A DNA stretch of 36,603 nucleotides from a virus. Below the pieces are notes generated by a model. The model was given only the letters and a program-made list of their open reading frames with translations. It did not search any database and had not been told where the DNA came from. Position 1 is the first letter of the stretch; each line of letters opens with the position of its first letter. The translations under genes were made by a program, and so were the position numbers. This document shows positions 2,284-19,682 of this stretch, in pieces. The stretch lies in the IMG/VR virus record IMGVR_UViG_3300046737_000089; one strand, given 5' to 3'.

Positions 2284-3506
2284 AATGAAAGCAACTTAAC
2301 GCCATATTGATCGTGCCATTTGAAACCAAATAACAAGTCAATACGAAGCATGTTAACGTCATTCAATAAGCTGCCTTGTCGTTCTACCCGCAAGGAAACA
2401 TTTAAGTCTTTGTCCGTGACCACCGAAGTATTTACATTGTCTAAAACTTCCATTGGAGGAATAACAATATCAAGACCGCGAGGATGATATGCAGGGTTAA
2501 CGTGATAACGAGAACCTGGCGTACCTATCAAAATCACAGGCATTGCAGCGACTACAGGCGTACTAACATTTCTGTAAGGGTCTGCTGGGTCAGAGATAAT
2601 CGGAGGGCTTACTATTACTTGTCCTAATCCACCCGCAGTAGAATCAACTTGGTTTTGAACGGTGAAATCCATCAATAAGCCAGTGTCGCTTCTATCAATT
2701 GGATTGACAGCATTTACACCAGTAAATTGAATGGTGTCGCCTGGTAAATAAACGCCAGTCACACTTGCGCCTAAACCGCTTAGATTCACAGTAGAGTCAC
2801 CACTTGCAGGAGTTGATGCTACAACAGCACCAGCAGCACCTACGCCAACCGTATGAAAAGCCACGGATTGGTTAGAGAACAAGTCGAACACTGAGTAGTG
2901 ACCCAGACGTGATGCAAACGTAATGTCTTCATTTAAGGTCGGGTTAAATGCATTTTGGTTAGCTGACTTCAATGCGCTTGCTTGGAAAGGAGCCAAAGCT
3001 AAATACCCATCATTCATGATTTGCATTGCTTGGGTTTCCATCTTCGCGTAAACCTGATCGACAACAGCAAATGAGTTGACAGGAGCAGAAGGATTTCCGG
3101 AAACATAATTTAACTGAGTAATTGCACCCTGCGCGATAATACTTTCAGCTTGTTTACAAAGCGCTTGAACAGCAGGACGAATATATCGTTCATTAAAGGG
3201 AGCTTGGTCAGTATTCATGAATAATGTTAATTCACGGGTACTGTATTCACGCGTCACATTTAATTGATAATCAATCGATAACGGTTCGGTTTTTTCAATA
3301 GAATCTTGAAGAACACCAACGCGCCCTTGATTAACAGTAACTTGAGTTTGTTTACGCAAACGGATAGTGTCGCCTACTTGATAATCGGCTTGTTTAAAGT
3401 CCGATTCATAAGTACGTGCACCAGTTAAAAGCAAAGAATTGTTAGTCGCTAATTCTGCAAGCGCAGCATTAGCGATAAGTTCTGTAACGGGAATTTGATT
3501 AGCCAT
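2280..3506 (-). CDS. Major capsid (coat) protein, P22-coat-like
   Basis: 408 aa following the scaffold gene. Overall layout and motifs (e.g. GDTIQFTGVNAVNP versus P22 GDKISFAGVKF) and the position fit. Confidence 0.8.
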   Translation of the reverse strand: MANQIPVTELIANAALAELATNNSLLLTGARTYESDFKQADYQVGDTIRLRKQTQVTVNQGRVGVLQDSIEKTEPLSIDYQLNVTREYSTRELTLFMNTDQAPFNERYIRPAVQALCKQAESIIAQGAITQLNYVSGNPSAPVNSFAVVDQVYAKMETQAMQIMNDGYLALAPFQASALKSANQNAFNPTLNEDITFASRLGHYSVFDLFSNQSVAFHTVGVGAAGAVVASTPASGDSTVNLSGLGASVTGVYLPGDTIQFTGVNAVNPIDRSDTGLLMDFTVQNQVDSTAGGLGQVIVSPPIISDPADPYRNVSTPVVAAMPVILIGTPGSRYHVNPAYHPRGLDIVIPPMEVLDNVNTSVVTDKDLNVSLRVERQGSLLNDVNMLRIDLLFGFKWHDQYGVKLLSL

Positions 3507-3566
3507 GACTCACCTTATGTTTAATAAATTAATTATTGAATTAAAGGTAAGTCGAAGGCTTAAATA

Positions 3567-4421
3567 TTAACGTCTACCACGTGGGGCTTCGCCGCTTAAT
3601 TGCGCTCTTCGCTCTGCCTTTAATTCAGCAAGAGTTTTTTGAGCGAAAGGTTTAGCAAATGAGCCAGATGACGACCCTACCGGTTTAACTGGTGGTGGCG
3701 TCTTAGTAATATTGTTTTTTGAAACCATATCTGCCATATGCCGAACAAGCTCTCGCTTCATTTCGTAAGCAGGTAGTTTTTGTAATCGATCGACTTCACG
3801 TGGATTTGAAGCTAAGTAATAGCCTAGTTCGCCAGGGTTGGGAAAATCTGACAATTCGCTTGCGATAGTGCCATTCATCCCAGATGCTCTAATCACTTTT
3901 TCAAAATCAGAATACCTTTCTTTGGCATCTTCAAATGAATCTTGAAAGTGTTCAAAGCGTTTTGCTTCTACTTCTTTCTGAGAGCGCTCTTGCTGTTGCT
4001 TCTCTTGAGCGTTCAAGTGTTGTGACATTTCTTGTTGATAGTTGAAAATTGCTTGACCTTCTGGCGTGCTCGTGTCGATATAACGTCCCGTAATAGGGTC
4101 GTTGTAACCGGTGGGCGATTGCGCACCATAAGGAGTTTGCGGCTGAGGCGCATTATTTCTTGCGCGTTCTTGGTCTAGCTCTGCCCGAACTTTTGCAATT
4201 TCTCGTTCATATTTCTTTTGCTCTTTGCCTAATCTGCGTTTTGCAAACTCAGGCAACTCACCTTCTGCATTCTCAGTAGGCGCAGCTTCCGTAGAAGTAG
4301 ACGCTTTCTCTTCGACTGGCTCAGGTGTCGACAGGGTCTCTGTCGGTGCTTCAAAAGAATTCTTACTATTACTCTCAACAACTGGCTGACTAACTGTCTC
4401 CACATTAAGTGTTCCTGACAT
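3567..4421 (-). CDS. Scaffolding protein
   Basis: 284 aa, highly charged and Glu/Gln/Lys-rich with helical character, lying between the portal and coat genes. Confidence 0.6.
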   Translation of the reverse strand: MSGTLNVETVSQPVVESNSKNSFEAPTETLSTPEPVEEKASTSTEAAPTENAEGELPEFAKRRLGKEQKKYEREIAKVRAELDQERARNNAPQPQTPYGAQSPTGYNDPITGRYIDTSTPEGQAIFNYQQEMSQHLNAQEKQQQERSQKEVEAKRFEHFQDSFEDAKERYSDFEKVIRASGMNGTIASELSDFPNPGELGYYLASNPREVDRLQKLPAYEMKRELVRHMADMVSKNNITKTPPPVKPVGSSSGSFAKPFAQKTLAELKAERRAQLSGEAPRGRR

Positions 4422-11050: not shown

Positions 11051-12469
11051 TTAGTTTTGCTTGGCATTCGCTCTCTCCCGAATATCGTTTAAATCACTTT
11101 GATTGTAAAGTTTTCCATCTTCATAGACAACACGAAGCAAGCCGCTTTGCTCTTCTTCGGCTGAGCAATGCTCCTTTGTAGAAATAATGTCGTCTTTGTT
11201 TTCTAAGCATAGTAAACCTTGATGAGATTTCTTTTTTGCATCTGTGATTGGGTCTTTAACGATATCAAATGGCTTTCCATGTCTTTCACCATAAGTTGCT
11301 TTAAATGTAATTCCCAAATCATCTCTATTATGTTGTTGTAATAACAAGCCGCCCAGGCCAATGACAAGATTTGATGCGGCATAGTCCATCGCGTGCATGT
11401 CCTGTAATATATGTTTATATCGTTCATAGTACATTCCATCCCCATAAATTAAACCAATCTTTGGGTTTAAAACCTTAAAGCCTTTTGAATTAGTTGTGCT
11501 GCCAAATGTACTGTCTAATAATCTTAAGCAGCCAGTTTTTTCAAATACGTTTGTGCCTTCTTGATTGCCACATATAATCTTATGTGGGTCACCGCTATCT
11601 GGGCGAATAACTACTTTACCATCACGCGCTATTATTTCATCTTTAAGTTGCGGCAATATGTTTACGAGCACTTTCCATAAGTTGTAACTATCAGCAACGA
11701 TGCTAAGAATGCCGGTAGGATACAATTTAAGCATAGCTCGAAAGGCATCGATTTCATTTTCTTTTCCATAAGCGCACATAACACTATGCTCACTAGCTGG
11801 CACGCTATACCCAGAGATACCGTCAGCCATATAGTATTGATCGAGCAGCTTAACGGCGGGAACTGTATCAGTACCGAGAAAATTACATAAGTGAGCGGCT
11901 CCAGAAAGTGCCGCTGTTTCTTCAGAAGAACAACCCCGATAACCAAAGTCATGAAGCATAAAAGGAATTGGACTTGTATCGTCACATGTCATCTCCACAA
12001 ACTTTGTAATTAGCTTTTTCATTTCATAGCTATATGTAGCCACACTAATTGTGTTCCAAACTTTCAGTAATAATGATTCGACGTAACCGACTAACCAATA
12101 AAAATCAGGATGAGTATTAGTAATTGTCATCAATACATTTTTAACAGGCAATACCATTCCTTCAGGCACAGCTTTAATCTTTAATGGTAGATAACCTAAT
12201 TTATACAAGTTCAAAAATGCCGCTACTAGAGAAGATGGACAACTGCCTAATATTTGTTTTCGATAATGCACAGCTTCTTGTATGTCTTCGTAGCTGATTG
12301 GATTTAAATACTGCTTCAAATAATATTGCAATCCAAAAAACATTTGTTCTTTGTATTTATGGTCACTGCGCGATATTAAATAGGAATAAACTTTATTCAT
12401 GCCTTCTGGATATTGTTCGATGTGACCGAATTTATAAGCGTCTGTCATTAATAATAGATTATTGTTCAT
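11051..12469 (-). CDS. nadV: Nicotinamide phosphoribosyltransferase family protein (NAMPT/NadV-like); candidate nicotinamide ADPR-transferase (Namat) of a NARP1-type pair
   Basis: 472 aa with NAMPT-family signatures: LMTDAYKFGH, HDFGYRG, SVPASEHSV, ADSYN, VIRPDSGDP, GLIYGDG. Confidence 0.9.
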   Translation of the reverse strand: MNNNLLLMTDAYKFGHIEQYPEGMNKVYSYLISRSDHKYKEQMFFGLQYYLKQYLNPISYEDIQEAVHYRKQILGSCPSSLVAAFLNLYKLGYLPLKIKAVPEGMVLPVKNVLMTITNTHPDFYWLVGYVESLLLKVWNTISVATYSYEMKKLITKFVEMTCDDTSPIPFMLHDFGYRGCSSEETAALSGAAHLCNFLGTDTVPAVKLLDQYYMADGISGYSVPASEHSVMCAYGKENEIDAFRAMLKLYPTGILSIVADSYNLWKVLVNILPQLKDEIIARDGKVVIRPDSGDPHKIICGNQEGTNVFEKTGCLRLLDSTFGSTTNSKGFKVLNPKIGLIYGDGMYYERYKHILQDMHAMDYAASNLVIGLGGLLLQQHNRDDLGITFKATYGERHGKPFDIVKDPITDAKKKSHQGLLCLENKDDIISTKEHCSAEEEQSGLLRVVYEDGKLYNQSDLNDIRERANAKQN

Positions 12470-17455: not shown

Positions 17456-17530
17456 AATTTTCTCGTATTATAATTATCATTTGTCCTGTTATATTGCGTC
17501 CTAGCAAATTGTCCTGTTTACTCCATAAAA

Positions 17531-17654
17531 TGGGGGTTAACGGTAGGATTCGAACCCACGAAGACCTTAGAGCAAATACCCATTCGCTACATTATCGTCA
17601 AGAGAAGCGACGCGACGCTCTCTCTGCCGTTGACCGCTTGGCTGTACGTTAACC
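17531..17654 (-). tRNA. Atypical 124-nt tRNA-like gene with encoded CCA (isotype undeterminable; non-canonical anticodon and variable regions)
   Basis: Minus strand: acceptor GGTTAAC(G)/(C)GTTAACC, discriminator C plus CCA, T-arm GTGGG-TTCGAAT-CCTAC, type-II-like D-arm GCC-AAGCGGTCAAC-GGC. The middle folds into two hairpins with 6-nt loops rather than a 7-nt anticodon loop. Confidence 0.5.
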
Positions 17655-17658
17655 ATAA

Positions 17659-17828: not shown

Positions 17829-17984
17829 CTAAATATTCAAACTATCTTTAACAGGCATAGACGCTTCTCGCCATGCATACGACTTACACTTAGGGCACGC
17901 AATAGGCTCAGCTTTTCTAGGAACCCATACCCAAAGACATCGAGCGCATTTTACGTTATCTACTTTCGTTGCTGTTTTTTTCAT
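17829..17984 (-). CDS. 51-aa zinc-ribbon protein (MKKTATKVDNVKCARCLWVWVPRKAEPIACPKCKSYAWREASMPVKDSLNI), below the track cutoff
   Basis: My own translation. CxxC-x16-CxxC with conserved-looking W/R spacing; overlaps the rsr 3' end by 29 nt. Confidence 0.5.
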   Translation of the reverse strand: MKKTATKVDNVKCARCLWVWVPRKAEPIACPKCKSYAWREASMPVKDSLNI

Positions 17985-19272
17985 GCTCTATAATAAACCT
18001 AAATATATTTTCACTAAAACCGCTTATGTGAATACCTTTATTATAAGCTATTCCGTTCTTATAAGAAGCAACATTAATAATATAATTCTCAATCCTACGT
18101 TTAAGCAAAACGTTATCTGCGTTCTGTTCATCTGTAATAATAATAAGCCGGTCATAAGGAAAGCTTTTATGCAGTGCATTAACAGCAGCGCCTAAATACG
18201 TTCCTCCATTCGACTGACTGTGCATAATGTTTTTTATCAGTGAGAAATTATTTACCGCAGCTACTTCAACAAACGATTCAGAAAATGTGAAAATTCTTAC
18301 ATCTTCAAAATAATTTACTGCCAATAATGCTAACGCACCTGCAGCGTCCATTCGAGTTACTTCAGACTTACCAGACAACCTATCATTCATCGACCCTGAA
18401 ACATCAACTAACACTACCGTTTTTCCGTTCAATTTCTCAAATTTACTTTTCAAAAAAGCCTTTTCTAAAGCAACTGTATATTGGGGCGCATGAACAGCAG
18501 CGGTTATTAATCTAAATGGCAATACTCTTTCAAAATTCGCAACATCAAAATAGGATTCAATCAACTCATTAGATACACCAGCAGCATACATATTACGAAG
18601 GTTTCTAATAAATGCTAATGCACCTAATTTATTTTCTGTCATCAATCGTTCAAATGTTTCTTTCTTATTTGCGCCTGATGATAATGCAACTTCCCATGTG
18701 TCAGGACTTTCTAATTCATTATTAGCAAGCTTTTTCCATATTACCGCTTGCTCTTCATTGTCTGGTTTTGGATGTACTAAAAACATTACATCCCGTAATT
18801 TAATTGCTTTCGACTGATTATTATATTTAGCTAATTGATAAGCATTAAAGTGTGTAAATGCTAATCCCAGTCCTTTTTTCACTTGATTAGGAATTGGTTT
18901 TTTACCATCTTTCCAATAAATCGCTAAAAATTCAGTGATTTCATCAGGGCGAGCAATAATCCTTTCTAACGCGTGAGCCATTCCAGCATATTTTTTTTCA
19001 ACTAAGATTACTAATAACAACAGAGGAACATGACGTAAGTGCATTGCATGACGCGCGCCGAGAGCTAGTAAATAAATGTGTTCATTATCTACTTTCTGAC
19101 ATAACTCAACTAATCTAGACGCATGGTCTTGACCGTTTTCATAGAATGATTTTTCCCACAAAAAACAGCTCATCACTGAACGTTCAAGTTCTTGCAATGG
19201 AGATATCTTAGATGCCCTACCGCCTTCATGCGTAGTTATTAACTCAGGGATAGAATGATTAATTGAAGCCAT
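17956..19272 (-). CDS. rsr: Ro60/Rsr orthologue (TROVE domain plus vWA/MIDAS domain)
   Basis: Collinear matches to Ro60 as I recall it: CFLWEKSFYENG, KLRDVMFLVHPKP, LGALAFIRNLRNM, VLPFRLITA, VVLVDVSGSMN (MIDAS DxSxS), GGTYLG, LIIITDEQ. Confidence 0.9.
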   Translation of the reverse strand: MASINHSIPELITTHEGGRASKISPLQELERSVMSCFLWEKSFYENGQDHASRLVELCQKVDNEHIYLLALGARHAMHLRHVPLLLLVILVEKKYAGMAHALERIIARPDEITEFLAIYWKDGKKPIPNQVKKGLGLAFTHFNAYQLAKYNNQSKAIKLRDVMFLVHPKPDNEEQAVIWKKLANNELESPDTWEVALSSGANKKETFERLMTENKLGALAFIRNLRNMYAAGVSNELIESYFDVANFERVLPFRLITAAVHAPQYTVALEKAFLKSKFEKLNGKTVVLVDVSGSMNDRLSGKSEVTRMDAAGALALLAVNYFEDVRIFTFSESFVEVAAVNNFSLIKNIMHSQSNGGTYLGAAVNALHKSFPYDRLIIITDEQNADNVLLKRRIENYIINVASYKNGIAYNKGIHISGFSENIFRFIIEHEKNSNESR

Positions 19273-19293
19273 ATTTTTCTCACTTTTATTAAT

Positions 19294-19380
19294 GCTTTAT
19301 CAGCTATGACAGAACAAAAATAACAGCGTGTTTTCACCGATTGAAGTAGCCGTTATTACACTAGTCATAGCTGATAAAGC
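19294..19380 (-). ncRNA. Y-RNA-like module C: 17-bp perfect outer stem, conserved internal loop (TAGTGT / TTTGTTCT), 8-bp inner stem, small apical hairpin; ends 21 nt before the rsr ATG
   Basis: gctttatcagctatgac (19380..19364) pairs with gtcatagctgataaagc (19310..19294); aataacgg pairs with ctgttatt. Confidence 0.6.
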
Positions 19381-19386
19381 ACTTAG

Positions 19387-19524
19387 AGATGCTACAGAAC
19401 AAGCGATACACTTATTTTTCGTGCTCTACCAACTGAGCTACCACTCGTTACCGAATGAGATGGACTCGAACCACCGACCACGTCATTACAAGTGAAGTAA
19501 GTGTATCTATCACTAGCAGCATCT
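19387..19524 (-). ncRNA. Y-RNA-like module B (YrlA-type): interrupted long stem enclosing a circularly permuted tRNA-like domain
   Basis: Minus strand: agatgctgc/gtagcatct (9 bp) and gatacactta/taagtgtatc (10 bp) flank an internal loop. Inside are T-arm GGTGG-TTCGAGT-CCATC, a 7-bp acceptor-like stem TCATTCG-GTAA-CGAGTGG closed by a GNRA loop, and a canonical D-arm TA-GCTC-AGTTGGTA-GAGC. Confidence 0.7.
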
Positions 19525-19536
19525 TTAAATACTTTG

Positions 19537-19646
19537 TAAAGTATTGCAGAACAACTAATAAACTCATTTGCCCACCCGGGCCAACCTGAAATTCAGGTAG
19601 TTTGGATTCGAACCGAAGTAAGTATATTAACACTAACAATACTTTA
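19537..19646 (-). ncRNA. Y-RNA-like module A: interrupted long stem enclosing a second, more degenerate permuted tRNA-like domain; begins at the predicted transcription start
   Basis: taaagtattg/caatacttta (10 bp) and taatatact/agtttatta (9 bp, one mismatch) flank the same internal loop. Inside are GG-TTCGAAT-CC T-loop, hairpin acctga-att-tcaggt and mini D-arm GCCC-GGGT-GGGC. Confidence 0.6.
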
Positions 19647-19653
19647 CCTCCTC

Positions 19654-19682
19654 ATAATAATAATAATAATAAACTTTGTCAA
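19654..19682 (-). promoter_or_regulatory. Sigma70-type promoter TTGACA-N17-TATTAT driving the Y-RNA modules and rsr
   Basis: -35 TTGACA at 19682..19677, exact 17-nt spacer, -10 TATTAT at 19659..19654. Near-identical to the promoter at 22572..22600. Confidence 0.65.

What the first reader, a model, noticed from the sequence alone, without database searches (positions are those of the whole stretch)
19294..19646. Conserved asymmetric internal loop (5' UAGUG(U/A) opposite UUGUUCU-G) shared by all three modules: candidate Rsr-binding site
The stem sequences of the three modules are unrelated, but each has the same internal loop at the same architectural position.

- The 5' side is TAGTGT (19635..19630), TAGTGA (19515..19510) and TAGTGT (19363..19358).
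- The 3' side is TTGTTCT followed by G (19554..19548, 19402..19396, 19317..19311). On the plus strand this reads as AGAACAA three times.

Conservation of unpaired nucleotides while the flanking helices differ in sequence but keep pairing is the signature of a protein-recognition element. It differs from the vertebrate Y-RNA Ro-binding helix as I remember it, so it may define a distinct recognition mode.
Basis: seen in the sequence. Interest (0 to 1): 0.7.

Follow-up and report, generated by a model that had tools for sequence, protein, structure and literature searches.

The report
Rsr-binding motif of phage Y RNAs
The repeated UAGUG / UUGUUCU loop is real and is an AT-rich version of the known docking site where bacterial Y RNAs are thought to bind the Ro60-like protein Rsr, so it is a divergent member of a known system, not a new recognition mode.

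Summary
On the minus strand, three hairpin modules (19647-19536, 19524-19387, 19383-19291) lie between a strong sigma-70-like promoter and an rsr gene with TROVE and vWA_Ro60 domains (19272-17956). Their stems are unrelated. Each carries UAGUG(U/A) on the 5' side and UUGUUCU on the 3' side.

The element is not wholly unpaired. It consists of an outer stem, one bulged U, two base pairs (AG with CU), and then an internal loop (5' UG.. opposite 3' ..UUGUU).

The same element flanks Rsr relatives (38-91% identical) in 93 of 99 loci. These include soil bacteria, one archaeal MAG and phages; the cultured phages crAss001 and Xanthomonas phage Tenjo, fetched separately, carry it too. The consensus is U-R-G-Y-G-N-A-G on the 5' side and (C)UUR-UU-C-Y on the 3' side. 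The R:Y pair covaries (G-C 253, A-U 32). All 214 covariance-model hits lie on the rsr strand.

The majority form, UGGCGAAG, contains the published GNCGAAN0-1G motif that Chen et al. 2014 proposed as the Rsr site. In a Thermus phage RNA, mutating its CGAA core weakens Ro60 binding.

The window therefore holds YrlA/YrlB-like Y RNAs with a sequence-variant Rsr-binding module. The idea of a "distinct recognition mode" is not. Binding itself is untested.

The parts
19654..19682 (-). Sigma-70-like promoter, TTGACA-17 nt-TATTAT. The transcript would start a few bases before module 1.
   Evidence: It matches 11 of 12 positions and is the best hit in the region. It is conserved in relatives L093 and L096. 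No convincing terminator lies between module 3 and rsr.
19536..19647 (-). Module 1. It has a 12-bp outer stem, a bulged U, the AG/CU pairs, a loop of UG opposite UUGUU, and an inner stem. The apical part has a T-loop-like GGUUCGAAUCC (19614-19604) and two small hairpins, but no D arm.
   Evidence: Fold (z -2.9). Model R1 scores it 20.3 bits, E 0.0017.
19630..19635 (-). Module 1, 5' motif UAGUGU (U bulged, AG paired, UG in the loop).
19547..19554 (-). Module 1, 3' motif UUGUUCU plus G (UUGUU in the loop, CU paired with AG, G closes the outer stem).
19387..19524 (-). Module 2, a YrlA-like Y RNA. It has a 9-bp outer stem, the motif, a 10-bp inner stem, UUAC, a hairpin with the 7-nt loop CUUGUAA, a T arm (19472-19462), an acceptor-like hairpin and a D arm (19440-19423).
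   Evidence: Rfam YrlA scores it 36.8 bits, E 3e-6, below the gathering score of 69. Fold (z -3.5). Arm coordinates.
19510..19515 (-). Module 2, 5' motif UAGUGA.
19395..19402 (-). Module 2, 3' motif UUGUUCU plus G.
19291..19383 (-). Module 3, a short YrlB-like module. It has a 19-bp outer stem, the motif, a 9-bp inner stem, CUAC and a small hairpin. It has no T or D arm. It ends about 20 nt before the rsr start codon.
   Evidence: Fold (z -7.9). Model R1 scores it 42.6 bits, but it was one of the seed sequences.
19358..19363 (-). Module 3, 5' motif UAGUGU.
19310..19317 (-). Module 3, 3' motif UUGUUCU plus G.
17956..19272 (-). rsr, a Ro60 orthologue of 438 aa.
   Evidence: Pfam TROVE 9e-15 and vWA_Ro60 4e-8. 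The closest solved structure is Thermus phage phiLo Ro60, 9KOP/9L5Y, E 2e-30. The MIDAS-type residues D290, S292 and S294, and the basic residues K132, K133 and K169, are invariant or nearly so in the clade.

Best explanation
The three modules are phage-encoded bacterial-type Y RNAs. One is a full YrlA-like tRNA mimic, one is partial, and one is short and YrlB-like. The shared element is their Rsr (Ro60)-binding module.

Shown here:
- The modules lie in the leader of rsr, downstream of one promoter-like site.
- Each has a long terminal stem interrupted by a bulged U, two pairs (R-G with C-Y) and an asymmetric loop with invariant G (5' side) and UU (3' side).
- The flanking helices covary while these bases stay fixed.
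- The element recurs, only on the rsr strand, in nearly every locus that encodes a relative of this Rsr.

Inferred:
- The array is transcribed with rsr and cut into separate RNAs.
- The Rsr ring docks by its outer surface on the distorted helix, as Ro60 does on the bulged lower stem of vertebrate Y RNAs and as proposed for the GNCGAA motif of YrlA.
- The differing apical domains then gate the Rsr cavity or tether different partners, such as a host exoribonuclease like PNPase. That would let the phage redirect host RNA decay.
For: - rsr identity: TROVE plus vWA_Ro60.
- Module 2 is the only significant Rfam hit, to YrlA at E 3e-6, with T and D arms in YrlA order.
- All three modules fold to the same plan.
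- In loci with Rsr relatives, a motif-plus-stem scan finds 317 modules on the rsr strand and 43 on the antisense control, in 93 of 99 loci, with 1-7 modules per locus.
- An anchor that ignores the motif (T arm plus D arm) gives 90 tRNA-like cores. 74 are enclosed by URGYG...UUCY plus a stem of at least 5 bp, against 63 of 1800 random positions.
- The R:Y pair covaries: G-C 253, A-U 32, G-U 10, A-C 2.
- On 40 short modules, the covariation score is 0.825 against 0.13-0.22 when partners are slid. All 8 inner-stem pairs change on both sides.
- Covariance model R1 gives 214 hits at E<=0.01, all on the rsr strand. In the window, the three modules are the only hits below E 0.1.
- The consensus 5' U-G-G-Y-G-A-A-G contains GGCGAAG, which is the published GNCGAAN0-1G motif (PMC4201824).
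- Mutating the CGAA core reduces phiLo Ro60 binding 3-4 fold (PMC12135203).
- Three of the four basic residues that contact Yrl2 in phiLo Ro60 align with conserved K132, K133 and K169 here.
Against: - No binding, expression or processing data exist for this phage or its clade.
- None of the three modules contains GNCGAA or CGAA in the motif. They read AGUGUUAA, AGUGAUAG and AGUGUAAU. In the clade, only 26 of 295 modules match GNCGAAN0-1G exactly.
- The equivalence to the known motif therefore rests on position and on a graded series of variants, not on identity.
- Rfam YrlA stays below its gathering score (36.8 against 69).
- The motif scan and the covariance model both presuppose the motif. 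Only the T/D-arm anchor is independent of it.
- This Rsr clade is remote from the proteins whose RNA contacts are known. D. radiodurans and Xenopus Ro60 are not found by sequence at E<0.01.
Confidence: 0.75

Rival explanations
1. The conserved element is mainly a processing signal. An RNase would recognise the bulge and loop at the base of each hairpin to release the modules from the polycistronic rsr leader, independently of Rsr.
For: The modules are packed 10-12 nt apart downstream of one promoter-like site, with no terminator before rsr, so some processing is likely. Arrays of 1-7 modules are the rule in relatives.
Against: The motif lies 9-19 bp inside the outer stem, not at the module boundaries. 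In crAss-like phages the modules lie downstream of the TROVE gene, yet they keep the motif. The positional homologue in other Y RNAs is tied to Ro60/Rsr binding by experiment (PMC4201824, PMC12135203). The two roles are not mutually exclusive.
Confidence: 0.1
2. The element binds a different partner, or is a purely structural hinge. The partner could be a host factor that recognises tRNA-like RNAs or an effector nuclease. The hinge would orient the apical domain. In this view Rsr binds elsewhere.
For: A second, equally conserved motif follows the inner stem: (U/C)UACUUC. In YrlA, the junction between the modules is kinked (bioRxiv 10.1101/312249).
Against: The element is present in short modules that lack any tRNA-like domain (module 3). 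It is therefore the only feature besides YUAC-UUC that is common to every module next to rsr. In all characterised Y RNAs the terminal stem carries the Ro60 site (PMC4201824, PMC4726728).
Confidence: 0.1
3. The shared loop only reflects recent duplication of one module within this phage and has no selected function.
For: The three modules are adjacent paralogues. In L093, module 2 carries a 3' half copied from module 1, so the modules do exchange sequence.
Against: The stems share no sequence while the motif is identical. The motif persists in loci whose Rsr is only 38-52% identical, with compensatory changes in both helices.
Confidence: 0.02

Closest known systems
YrlA and YrlB of Salmonella Typhimurium and the YrlA-like RNAs of >250 bacteria and phages (Chen et al. 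2014, PMC4201824; Rfam RF02553)
   Same: - Encoded next to rsr on the same strand.
- A long stem formed by the 5' and 3' ends carries a short conserved 5'-strand motif.
- YUAY follows the inner stem, then a V hairpin, a T arm, an acceptor-like hairpin and a D arm (module 2).
- A short partner without the tRNA-like domain is also present (module 3, resembling YrlB).
   Different: - The motif reads U-A-G-U-G-W instead of GNCGAAN0-1G.
- In this clade the 3' strand (UU-C-Y, often CUUGUUCY) is conserved too, and a bulged U precedes the motif. The literature states that only the 5' strand is conserved.
- Rfam scores are 33-56 bits for the whole clade, below the gathering score of 69.
- The modules come in arrays of up to seven.
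Yrl1 and Yrl2 of Thermus phage phiLo with phiRo60 (PMC12135203; PDB 9KOP, 9L5Y)
   Same: These are phage-encoded Y RNA-like hairpins upstream of a phage Ro60 gene. phiRo60 is the closest solved relative of the window's Rsr (E 2e-30). Basic residues that contact the RNA stem are conserved. Binding there depends partly on the motif.
   Different: phiLo uses CGAA, which the window's modules lack. Model R1 finds no hit in the phiLo locus. The proteins are only about 29% identical.
Vertebrate Y RNA lower stem (Ro60 site: helix with a bulged C and a 3-nt bulge on the opposite strand; PMC4726728)
   Same: A terminal stem carries one bulged pyrimidine on the 5' strand, followed by a short purine/pyrimidine helix and extra unpaired bases on the 3' strand. 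The 5' bases are conserved. The core G-G-[Y]-G-A over U-U-C-C can be drawn like U-C-[C]-G-A over U-U-G-A, but this drawing is my inference.
   Different: The sequence differs (no GGUCCGA / UUGAC). There is no polymerase III-type 3' U tract. The apical domain is tRNA-like. The G-U and A-U pairs in my drawing are not supported by covariation, because the bases are invariant.
Deinococcus radiodurans Yrn1
   Same: It is bound by Rsr through its terminal stem, has a T-arm-like hairpin and tethers Rsr to PNPase. It is the model for the mechanism proposed here.
   Different: There is no detectable sequence relationship. According to Chen et al. 2014, the T and D elements are ordered differently.

Membership tests
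YrlA-type bacterial Y RNA (Chen et al. 2014; Rfam RF02553) | Encoded close to a Ro60/Rsr gene and on the same strand | tested here: met
   The modules end about 20 nt upstream of rsr on the same strand. In relatives, all 214 model hits are on the rsr strand.
YrlA-type bacterial Y RNA (Chen et al. 2014; Rfam RF02553) | tRNA-like domain with a T arm, an acceptor-like hairpin and a D arm, in that order | tested here: met
   Module 2 has GGUUCGAGUCC at 19472-19462 and UAGCUCAGUUGGUAGAGC at 19440-19423, aligned to the YrlA model. Module 1 has only a T-loop-like sequence. Module 3 has neither.
YrlA-type bacterial Y RNA (Chen et al. 2014; Rfam RF02553) | Score at or above the Rfam gathering threshold (69 bits) | tested here: not met
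   The score is 36.8 bits, E 3e-6. All 20 relatives tested at the gathering threshold also fail. Streptomyces and Gordonia phage loci, which belong to Rsr groups outside this clade, reach only 43-47 bits, so the threshold appears narrow.
YrlA-type bacterial Y RNA (Chen et al. 2014; Rfam RF02553) | GNCGAAN0-1G motif near the 5' end | tested here: not met
   The literal motif is absent from all three modules. The same position holds AGUGUUAA, AGUGAUAG and AGUGUAAU. In the clade, 26 of 295 modules match exactly, and the consensus UGGYGAAG bridges the two forms.
YrlA-type bacterial Y RNA (Chen et al. 2014; Rfam RF02553) | Conserved YUAY after the stem, beginning the V region | tested here: met
   UUAC is at 19621-19618 and 19500-19497, and CUAC at 19349-19346. 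In 150 aligned relatives the U is 150/150, the A 119/150 and the C 150/150.
YrlA-type bacterial Y RNA (Chen et al. 2014; Rfam RF02553) | Bound by Rsr in vivo or in vitro | not testable with these tools
   This needs EMSA, a pull-down or a structure.
Metazoan Y RNA | Conserved lower-stem sequence GGUCCGA paired with UUGAC | tested here: not met
   It is absent from 19291-19647.
Metazoan Y RNA | Terminal helix with a single bulged pyrimidine on the 5' strand and extra unpaired bases on the 3' strand | tested here: met
   The predicted folds of all three modules show a bulged U and a loop of 2-5 nt (5' side) against 5-7 nt (3' side). The flanking pairs are supported by covariation.
Kink-turn / loop E (considered as alternative RNA motifs) | Tandem sheared G-A pairs next to a 3-nt bulge (kink-turn), or AGUA/GAA (loop E) | tested here: not met
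   The 3' strand next to the C-Y pair is an invariant UU, with no GA. This was judged by inspection only.

The most novel reading that the evidence does not exclude
In this large and experimentally untouched clade of short (about 435 aa) Rsr proteins, recognition would not depend on CGAA. It would depend on a two-stranded signature: a bulged U, two invariant G on the 5' strand and an invariant UU-C on the 3' strand. These would form a doubly distorted helix closer to the vertebrate Ro60 site than to the Salmonella-type model. If so, the bacterial recognition rule ("only the 5' strand is conserved") would need revising. Hundreds of unannotated Y RNAs, including those of the cultured gut phage crAss001, would become testable Rsr ligands.
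Probability: 0.35. Interest if true: 0.5.

Novelty: new member of a known kind. Interest (0 to 1): 0.35.

Why it matters
The element identifies the three hairpins upstream of this phage's rsr as Y RNAs and marks where the protein most likely docks.

The comparative set collected here gives a natural mutagenesis table for that site: about 300 modules from roughly 100 loci.
- Positions that never change: the bulged U, two G, and UU-C.
- One pair that covaries: R with Y.
- The published CGAA core is dispensable in sequence. C is replaced by U in about two thirds of the modules found by the motif scan and about half of the best model hits.

That yields precise, cheap binding experiments.

The same motif also exposes unannotated Y RNA arrays in cultured phages (crAss001, Xanthomonas phage Tenjo). 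In those systems the function of a phage Ro60-Y RNA particle could be studied genetically.

Tried and rejected
- Rfam at gathering thresholds found nothing in the window. ARAGORN found no tRNA.
- DNA-level search of the phage collection found no close relative, only a weak hit in a crAss-like TROVE gene.
- My first alignment of the motif to GNCGAA (C-U-A-G-U-G against C-G-A-A-U-G, taken from the Rfam consensus) was dropped. The bacterial relatives showed the true register, UGGCGAAG.
- The Rfam model itself mis-places its 5' end on the inner stem of these RNAs.
- Kink-turn and loop E readings were rejected by inspection, because there is no G-A next to the C-Y pair.
- An unbiased search for any perfect 7-bp closure around the T/D cores picked the motif-flanking stem in only about half of the cases and other stems in the rest. 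It was replaced by the enclosure test.
- The G-U / A-U pairs of a vertebrate-like drawing cannot be tested, because the bases do not vary.
- phiLo's Yrl boundaries could not be recovered from the text, and model R1 finds nothing there.
- Several reviews and Green et al. 1998 are not held in the library. No supplements are held for Chen et al. 2014.
- Relaxed ARAGORN on the element downstream of rsr gave only a dubious call.

Full report
**The observation.** Read on the minus strand, window 19647-19291 contains three consecutive hairpin modules. The short words are not enriched in the window as a whole. The paired arrangement TAGTGW-N40-70-TTGTTCTG, however, is expected 0.01 times per window. 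The whole 366-nt stretch folds far better than shuffles (z -6.1). Each module folds alone into the same plan: an outer stem of 12, 9 or 19 bp, one bulged U, two pairs (A-G with C-U), an internal loop, an inner stem of 6-10 bp, and a variable apical part. The three outer and inner stems share no sequence.

Two details of the finding need correcting. AG and CU are paired, so the loop proper is 5' UG(N0-3) opposite 3' (N0-2)UUGUU. The trailing G is the closing pair of the outer stem, not part of the loop.

**Surroundings.** The window is a tailed phage, with portal, large terminase, major head protein, RecT, a replication initiator and tail fibre proteins. A strong sigma-70-like promoter match (TTGACA-17-TATTAT, 11 of 12 positions) ends a few bases before module 1. 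No convincing terminator separates module 3 from the next gene. That gene (19272-17956, 438 aa) is an Rsr/Ro60 orthologue. It hits Pfam TROVE and vWA_Ro60. Its closest solved structure is the Ro60 of Thermus phage phiLo. Module 2 is the only significant Rfam hit in the region. It matches YrlA at 36.8 bits, E 3e-6, below the gathering score of 69, with a T arm and a D arm in YrlA order. Module 1 keeps only a T-loop-like sequence. Module 3 is a short hairpin.

**Related loci.** I collected loci that encode relatives of this Rsr:
- 12 IMG/VR viral contigs (38-52% identity).
- 80 genomes, mostly Acidobacteriota and Caulobacterales, plus a WWE3 bacterium, a Clostridiales MAG and a DHVE2 archaeon.
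- Contigs carrying the closest proteins, at 91, 68, 65 and 58% identity.
- Cultured phages: crAss001, Xanthomonas phage Tenjo and others.

The element is present almost everywhere. A scan for U-R-G-Y-G ... UUC-N with an adjacent outer stem of at least 6 bp finds 317 modules on the rsr strand against 43 on the antisense strand. They occur in 93 of 99 loci, with 1 to 7 modules per locus.

That scan presupposes the motif, so I also anchored on the T and D arms alone. Of 90 tRNA-like cores, 74 are enclosed by the motif plus a stem, against 63 of 1800 random positions in the same loci (listing).

A covariance model built from 40 short modules gives 214 hits at E<=0.01 across 100 loci, and every one is on the rsr strand. 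In the window, the three modules are the only hits below E 0.1.

**Anatomy of the conserved element.** In the 150 best hits aligned to the model, the 5' strand reads:
- U (150/150)
- R (G 138, A 11)
- G (150/150)
- Y (C 79, U 71)
- G (149/150)
- N
- A (137/150)
- G (136/150)

The 3' strand reads G-(C)-(U)-(U)-R, then U (147/150), U (148/150), C (146/150) and Y (C 138, U 12). The motif-independent tables agree.

R and Y form a pair that covaries: G-C 253, A-U 32, G-U 10, A-C 2. The A-U form occurs in several separate lineages:
- the window's own group
- crAss-like phages
- contigs L005 and L006
- a WWE3 bacterium
- single modules inside otherwise G-C-type arrays (L021, L023)

On the 40-sequence alignment, the two helices flanking the loop are 89% paired. 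The covariation score is 0.825, against 0.13-0.22 when the partners are slid. All eight pairs of the inner stem change on both sides, and the inner stem played no part in selecting the sequences.

The full word UUGUUCU is typical of the AT-rich lineages. Across the clade, only R-UU-C-Y is general on the 3' strand.

**What it is.** The majority form, UGGCGAAG, contains GGCGAAG. This is the GNCGAAN0-1G motif that Chen et al. 2014 found near the 5' end of YrlA and YrlB RNAs. It overlaps the sequences needed for Rsr binding in D. radiodurans Yrn1, and they proposed it as the Rsr recognition site (PMC4201824).

In Thermus phage phiLo, single substitutions in the CGAA core of Yrl2 raise the Kd for the phage Ro60 three- to four-fold (PMC12135203).

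The rest of the architecture also matches YrlA. The inner stem takes the place of the anticodon stem. It is followed by the conserved YUAY (here UUAC, UUAC and CUAC), a V hairpin, a T arm, an acceptor-like hairpin and a D arm.

The window's motif is thus the positional homologue of the published Rsr site, with an A-U pair in place of G-C and GUG(U/A) in place of GCGA. It does not match the published pattern literally. In this clade only 26 of 295 modules do, because U replaces C in most.

Rfam's YrlA model misses the whole clade at its threshold. Scores are 33-56 bits. It also places its 5' end on the wrong helix.

**How it most likely works.** What is shown is the anatomy, the conservation, the covariation and the linkage to rsr. 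What is inferred is the following:
- The array is made as one transcript with rsr and cut into separate RNAs.
- Rsr docks by its outer surface on the distorted helix.
- The different apical domains gate the ring or tether different partners. Known precedents are PNPase with Yrn1 and with the phiLo RNAs.

Two weaker points support docking. First, three of the four basic residues that face Yrl2 in the phiLo complex are conserved here. R137, K141, K142 and R178 of the paper correspond to R145, K149, K150 and R186 of the deposited chain, an assignment I made from their identical spacing. Three of these align with K132, K133 and K169 here, which are invariant or nearly so in the clade. The fourth aligns with a proline. 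Second, the vertebrate Ro60 site is likewise a terminal helix with one bulged pyrimidine on the 5' strand and a bulge on the opposite strand, and both bulges are needed for binding (PMC4726728).

The core can be drawn as G-G-[Y]-G-A over U-U-C-C, which resembles the vertebrate U-C-[C]-G-A over U-U-G-A. The bases involved do not vary, so this drawing cannot be tested here and remains my inference.

**Rivals.**
- A pure processing signal is unlikely. The motif lies 9-19 bp inside the outer stem. It is also kept in crAss-like phages, where the modules follow the TROVE gene.
- A site for another partner cannot be excluded. However, apart from YUAC-UUC, the motif is the only feature common to every module, including those with no tRNA-like part.
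- Mere recent duplication is contradicted by the comparative data.

**Novelty and value.** Phage and bacterial Y RNAs next to rsr, and a short conserved motif for Rsr in their terminal stem, are known. This is a divergent new member of that kind.

What goes beyond the accessible literature is modest:
- In this clade the 3' strand is conserved too. The literature says only the 5' strand is.
- A bulged U precedes the motif.
- CGAA is not required in sequence.
- Arrays of up to seven modules are common.
- Cultured phages such as crAss001 carry unannotated modules. The crAss001 papers I could search mention the TROVE protein as an early gene but no Y RNA.

No binding has been tested, so the functional claim rests on homology.

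Noticed in passing
window 17530-17655 (- strand), about 300 nt downstream of the rsr stop: A tRNA-like element. It has an 8-bp acceptor-like stem, GGUUAACG/CGUUAACC, followed by CCCA. Next to it is a T arm, GUGGG-UUCGAAU-CCUAC. A long structured insert takes the place where the D and anticodon arms should be. ARAGORN and Rfam do not call it; only a relaxed ARAGORN run gives a dubious intron-containing tRNA. Relative L097 has a true tRNA at the equivalent place.
   Followed up: partly
L100 (Bacteroides phage crAss001, MH675552) 2965-3054, 3062-3139, 3542-3685: The cultured gut phage crAss001 has at least three unannotated Y RNA-like modules, with UAGUGU ... GUUGUUCU, just downstream of its TROVE gene gp96. 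The crAss001 papers I could search mention the TROVE protein as an early gene but no Y RNA. Xanthomonas phage Tenjo (L101 790-1470) has several modules upstream of its unannotated Rsr: the motif scan found three and model R1 two more.
   Followed up: partly
window 19615-19621, 19494-19500, 19343-19349 (- strand); relatives: A second, nearly invariant motif, (U/C)UACUUC, follows the inner stem in every module. It starts a hairpin whose 7-nt loop often looks like an anticodon loop (CU-NNN-AA; CUUGUAA in module 2, CUGUUAA in many relatives). It corresponds to the YUAY and V arm of Chen et al. 2014. It may be the second contact surface.
   Followed up: partly
L012 4448-4520; L100 3145-3288: In crAss-like phages, the tRNA model scores 47-59 bits on sequences inside or directly next to Y RNA modules. 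These may be real tRNAs embedded in Y RNA stems, or very tRNA-like Y RNAs.
   Followed up: no
L093 2243-2387 (Rsr 91% identical to the window's): Module 2 of this close relative has the 3' half of its inner stem replaced by a copy of module 1's (…AAUUAGUUUAUUAGUUGUUCUG). This breaks the inner stem and suggests recombination between modules through the shared motif.
   Followed up: no
window 17829-17984 (- strand), overlapping the 3' end of rsr: A 51-aa ORF with two CxxC pairs (CARC ... CPKC, zinc-ribbon-like) overlaps the end of rsr. A small ORF of similar size sits at the same place in relatives L093-L095, L097 and L098. It is a possible conserved partner of the phage Rsr.
   Followed up: no
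loci L013-L092 (bacterial and archaeal genomes): Rfam's YrlA gathering score (69 bits) misses every Y RNA of this Rsr clade (33-56 bits). It also misses those of the Streptomyces and Gordonia phages tested. Standard annotation therefore leaves these arrays (1-7 modules per locus) unmarked.
   Followed up: yes
window 11051-12469 (- strand): The phage encodes a nicotinamide phosphoribosyltransferase (PHROG 448, E 1e-165), an NAD-salvage enzyme.
   Followed up: no
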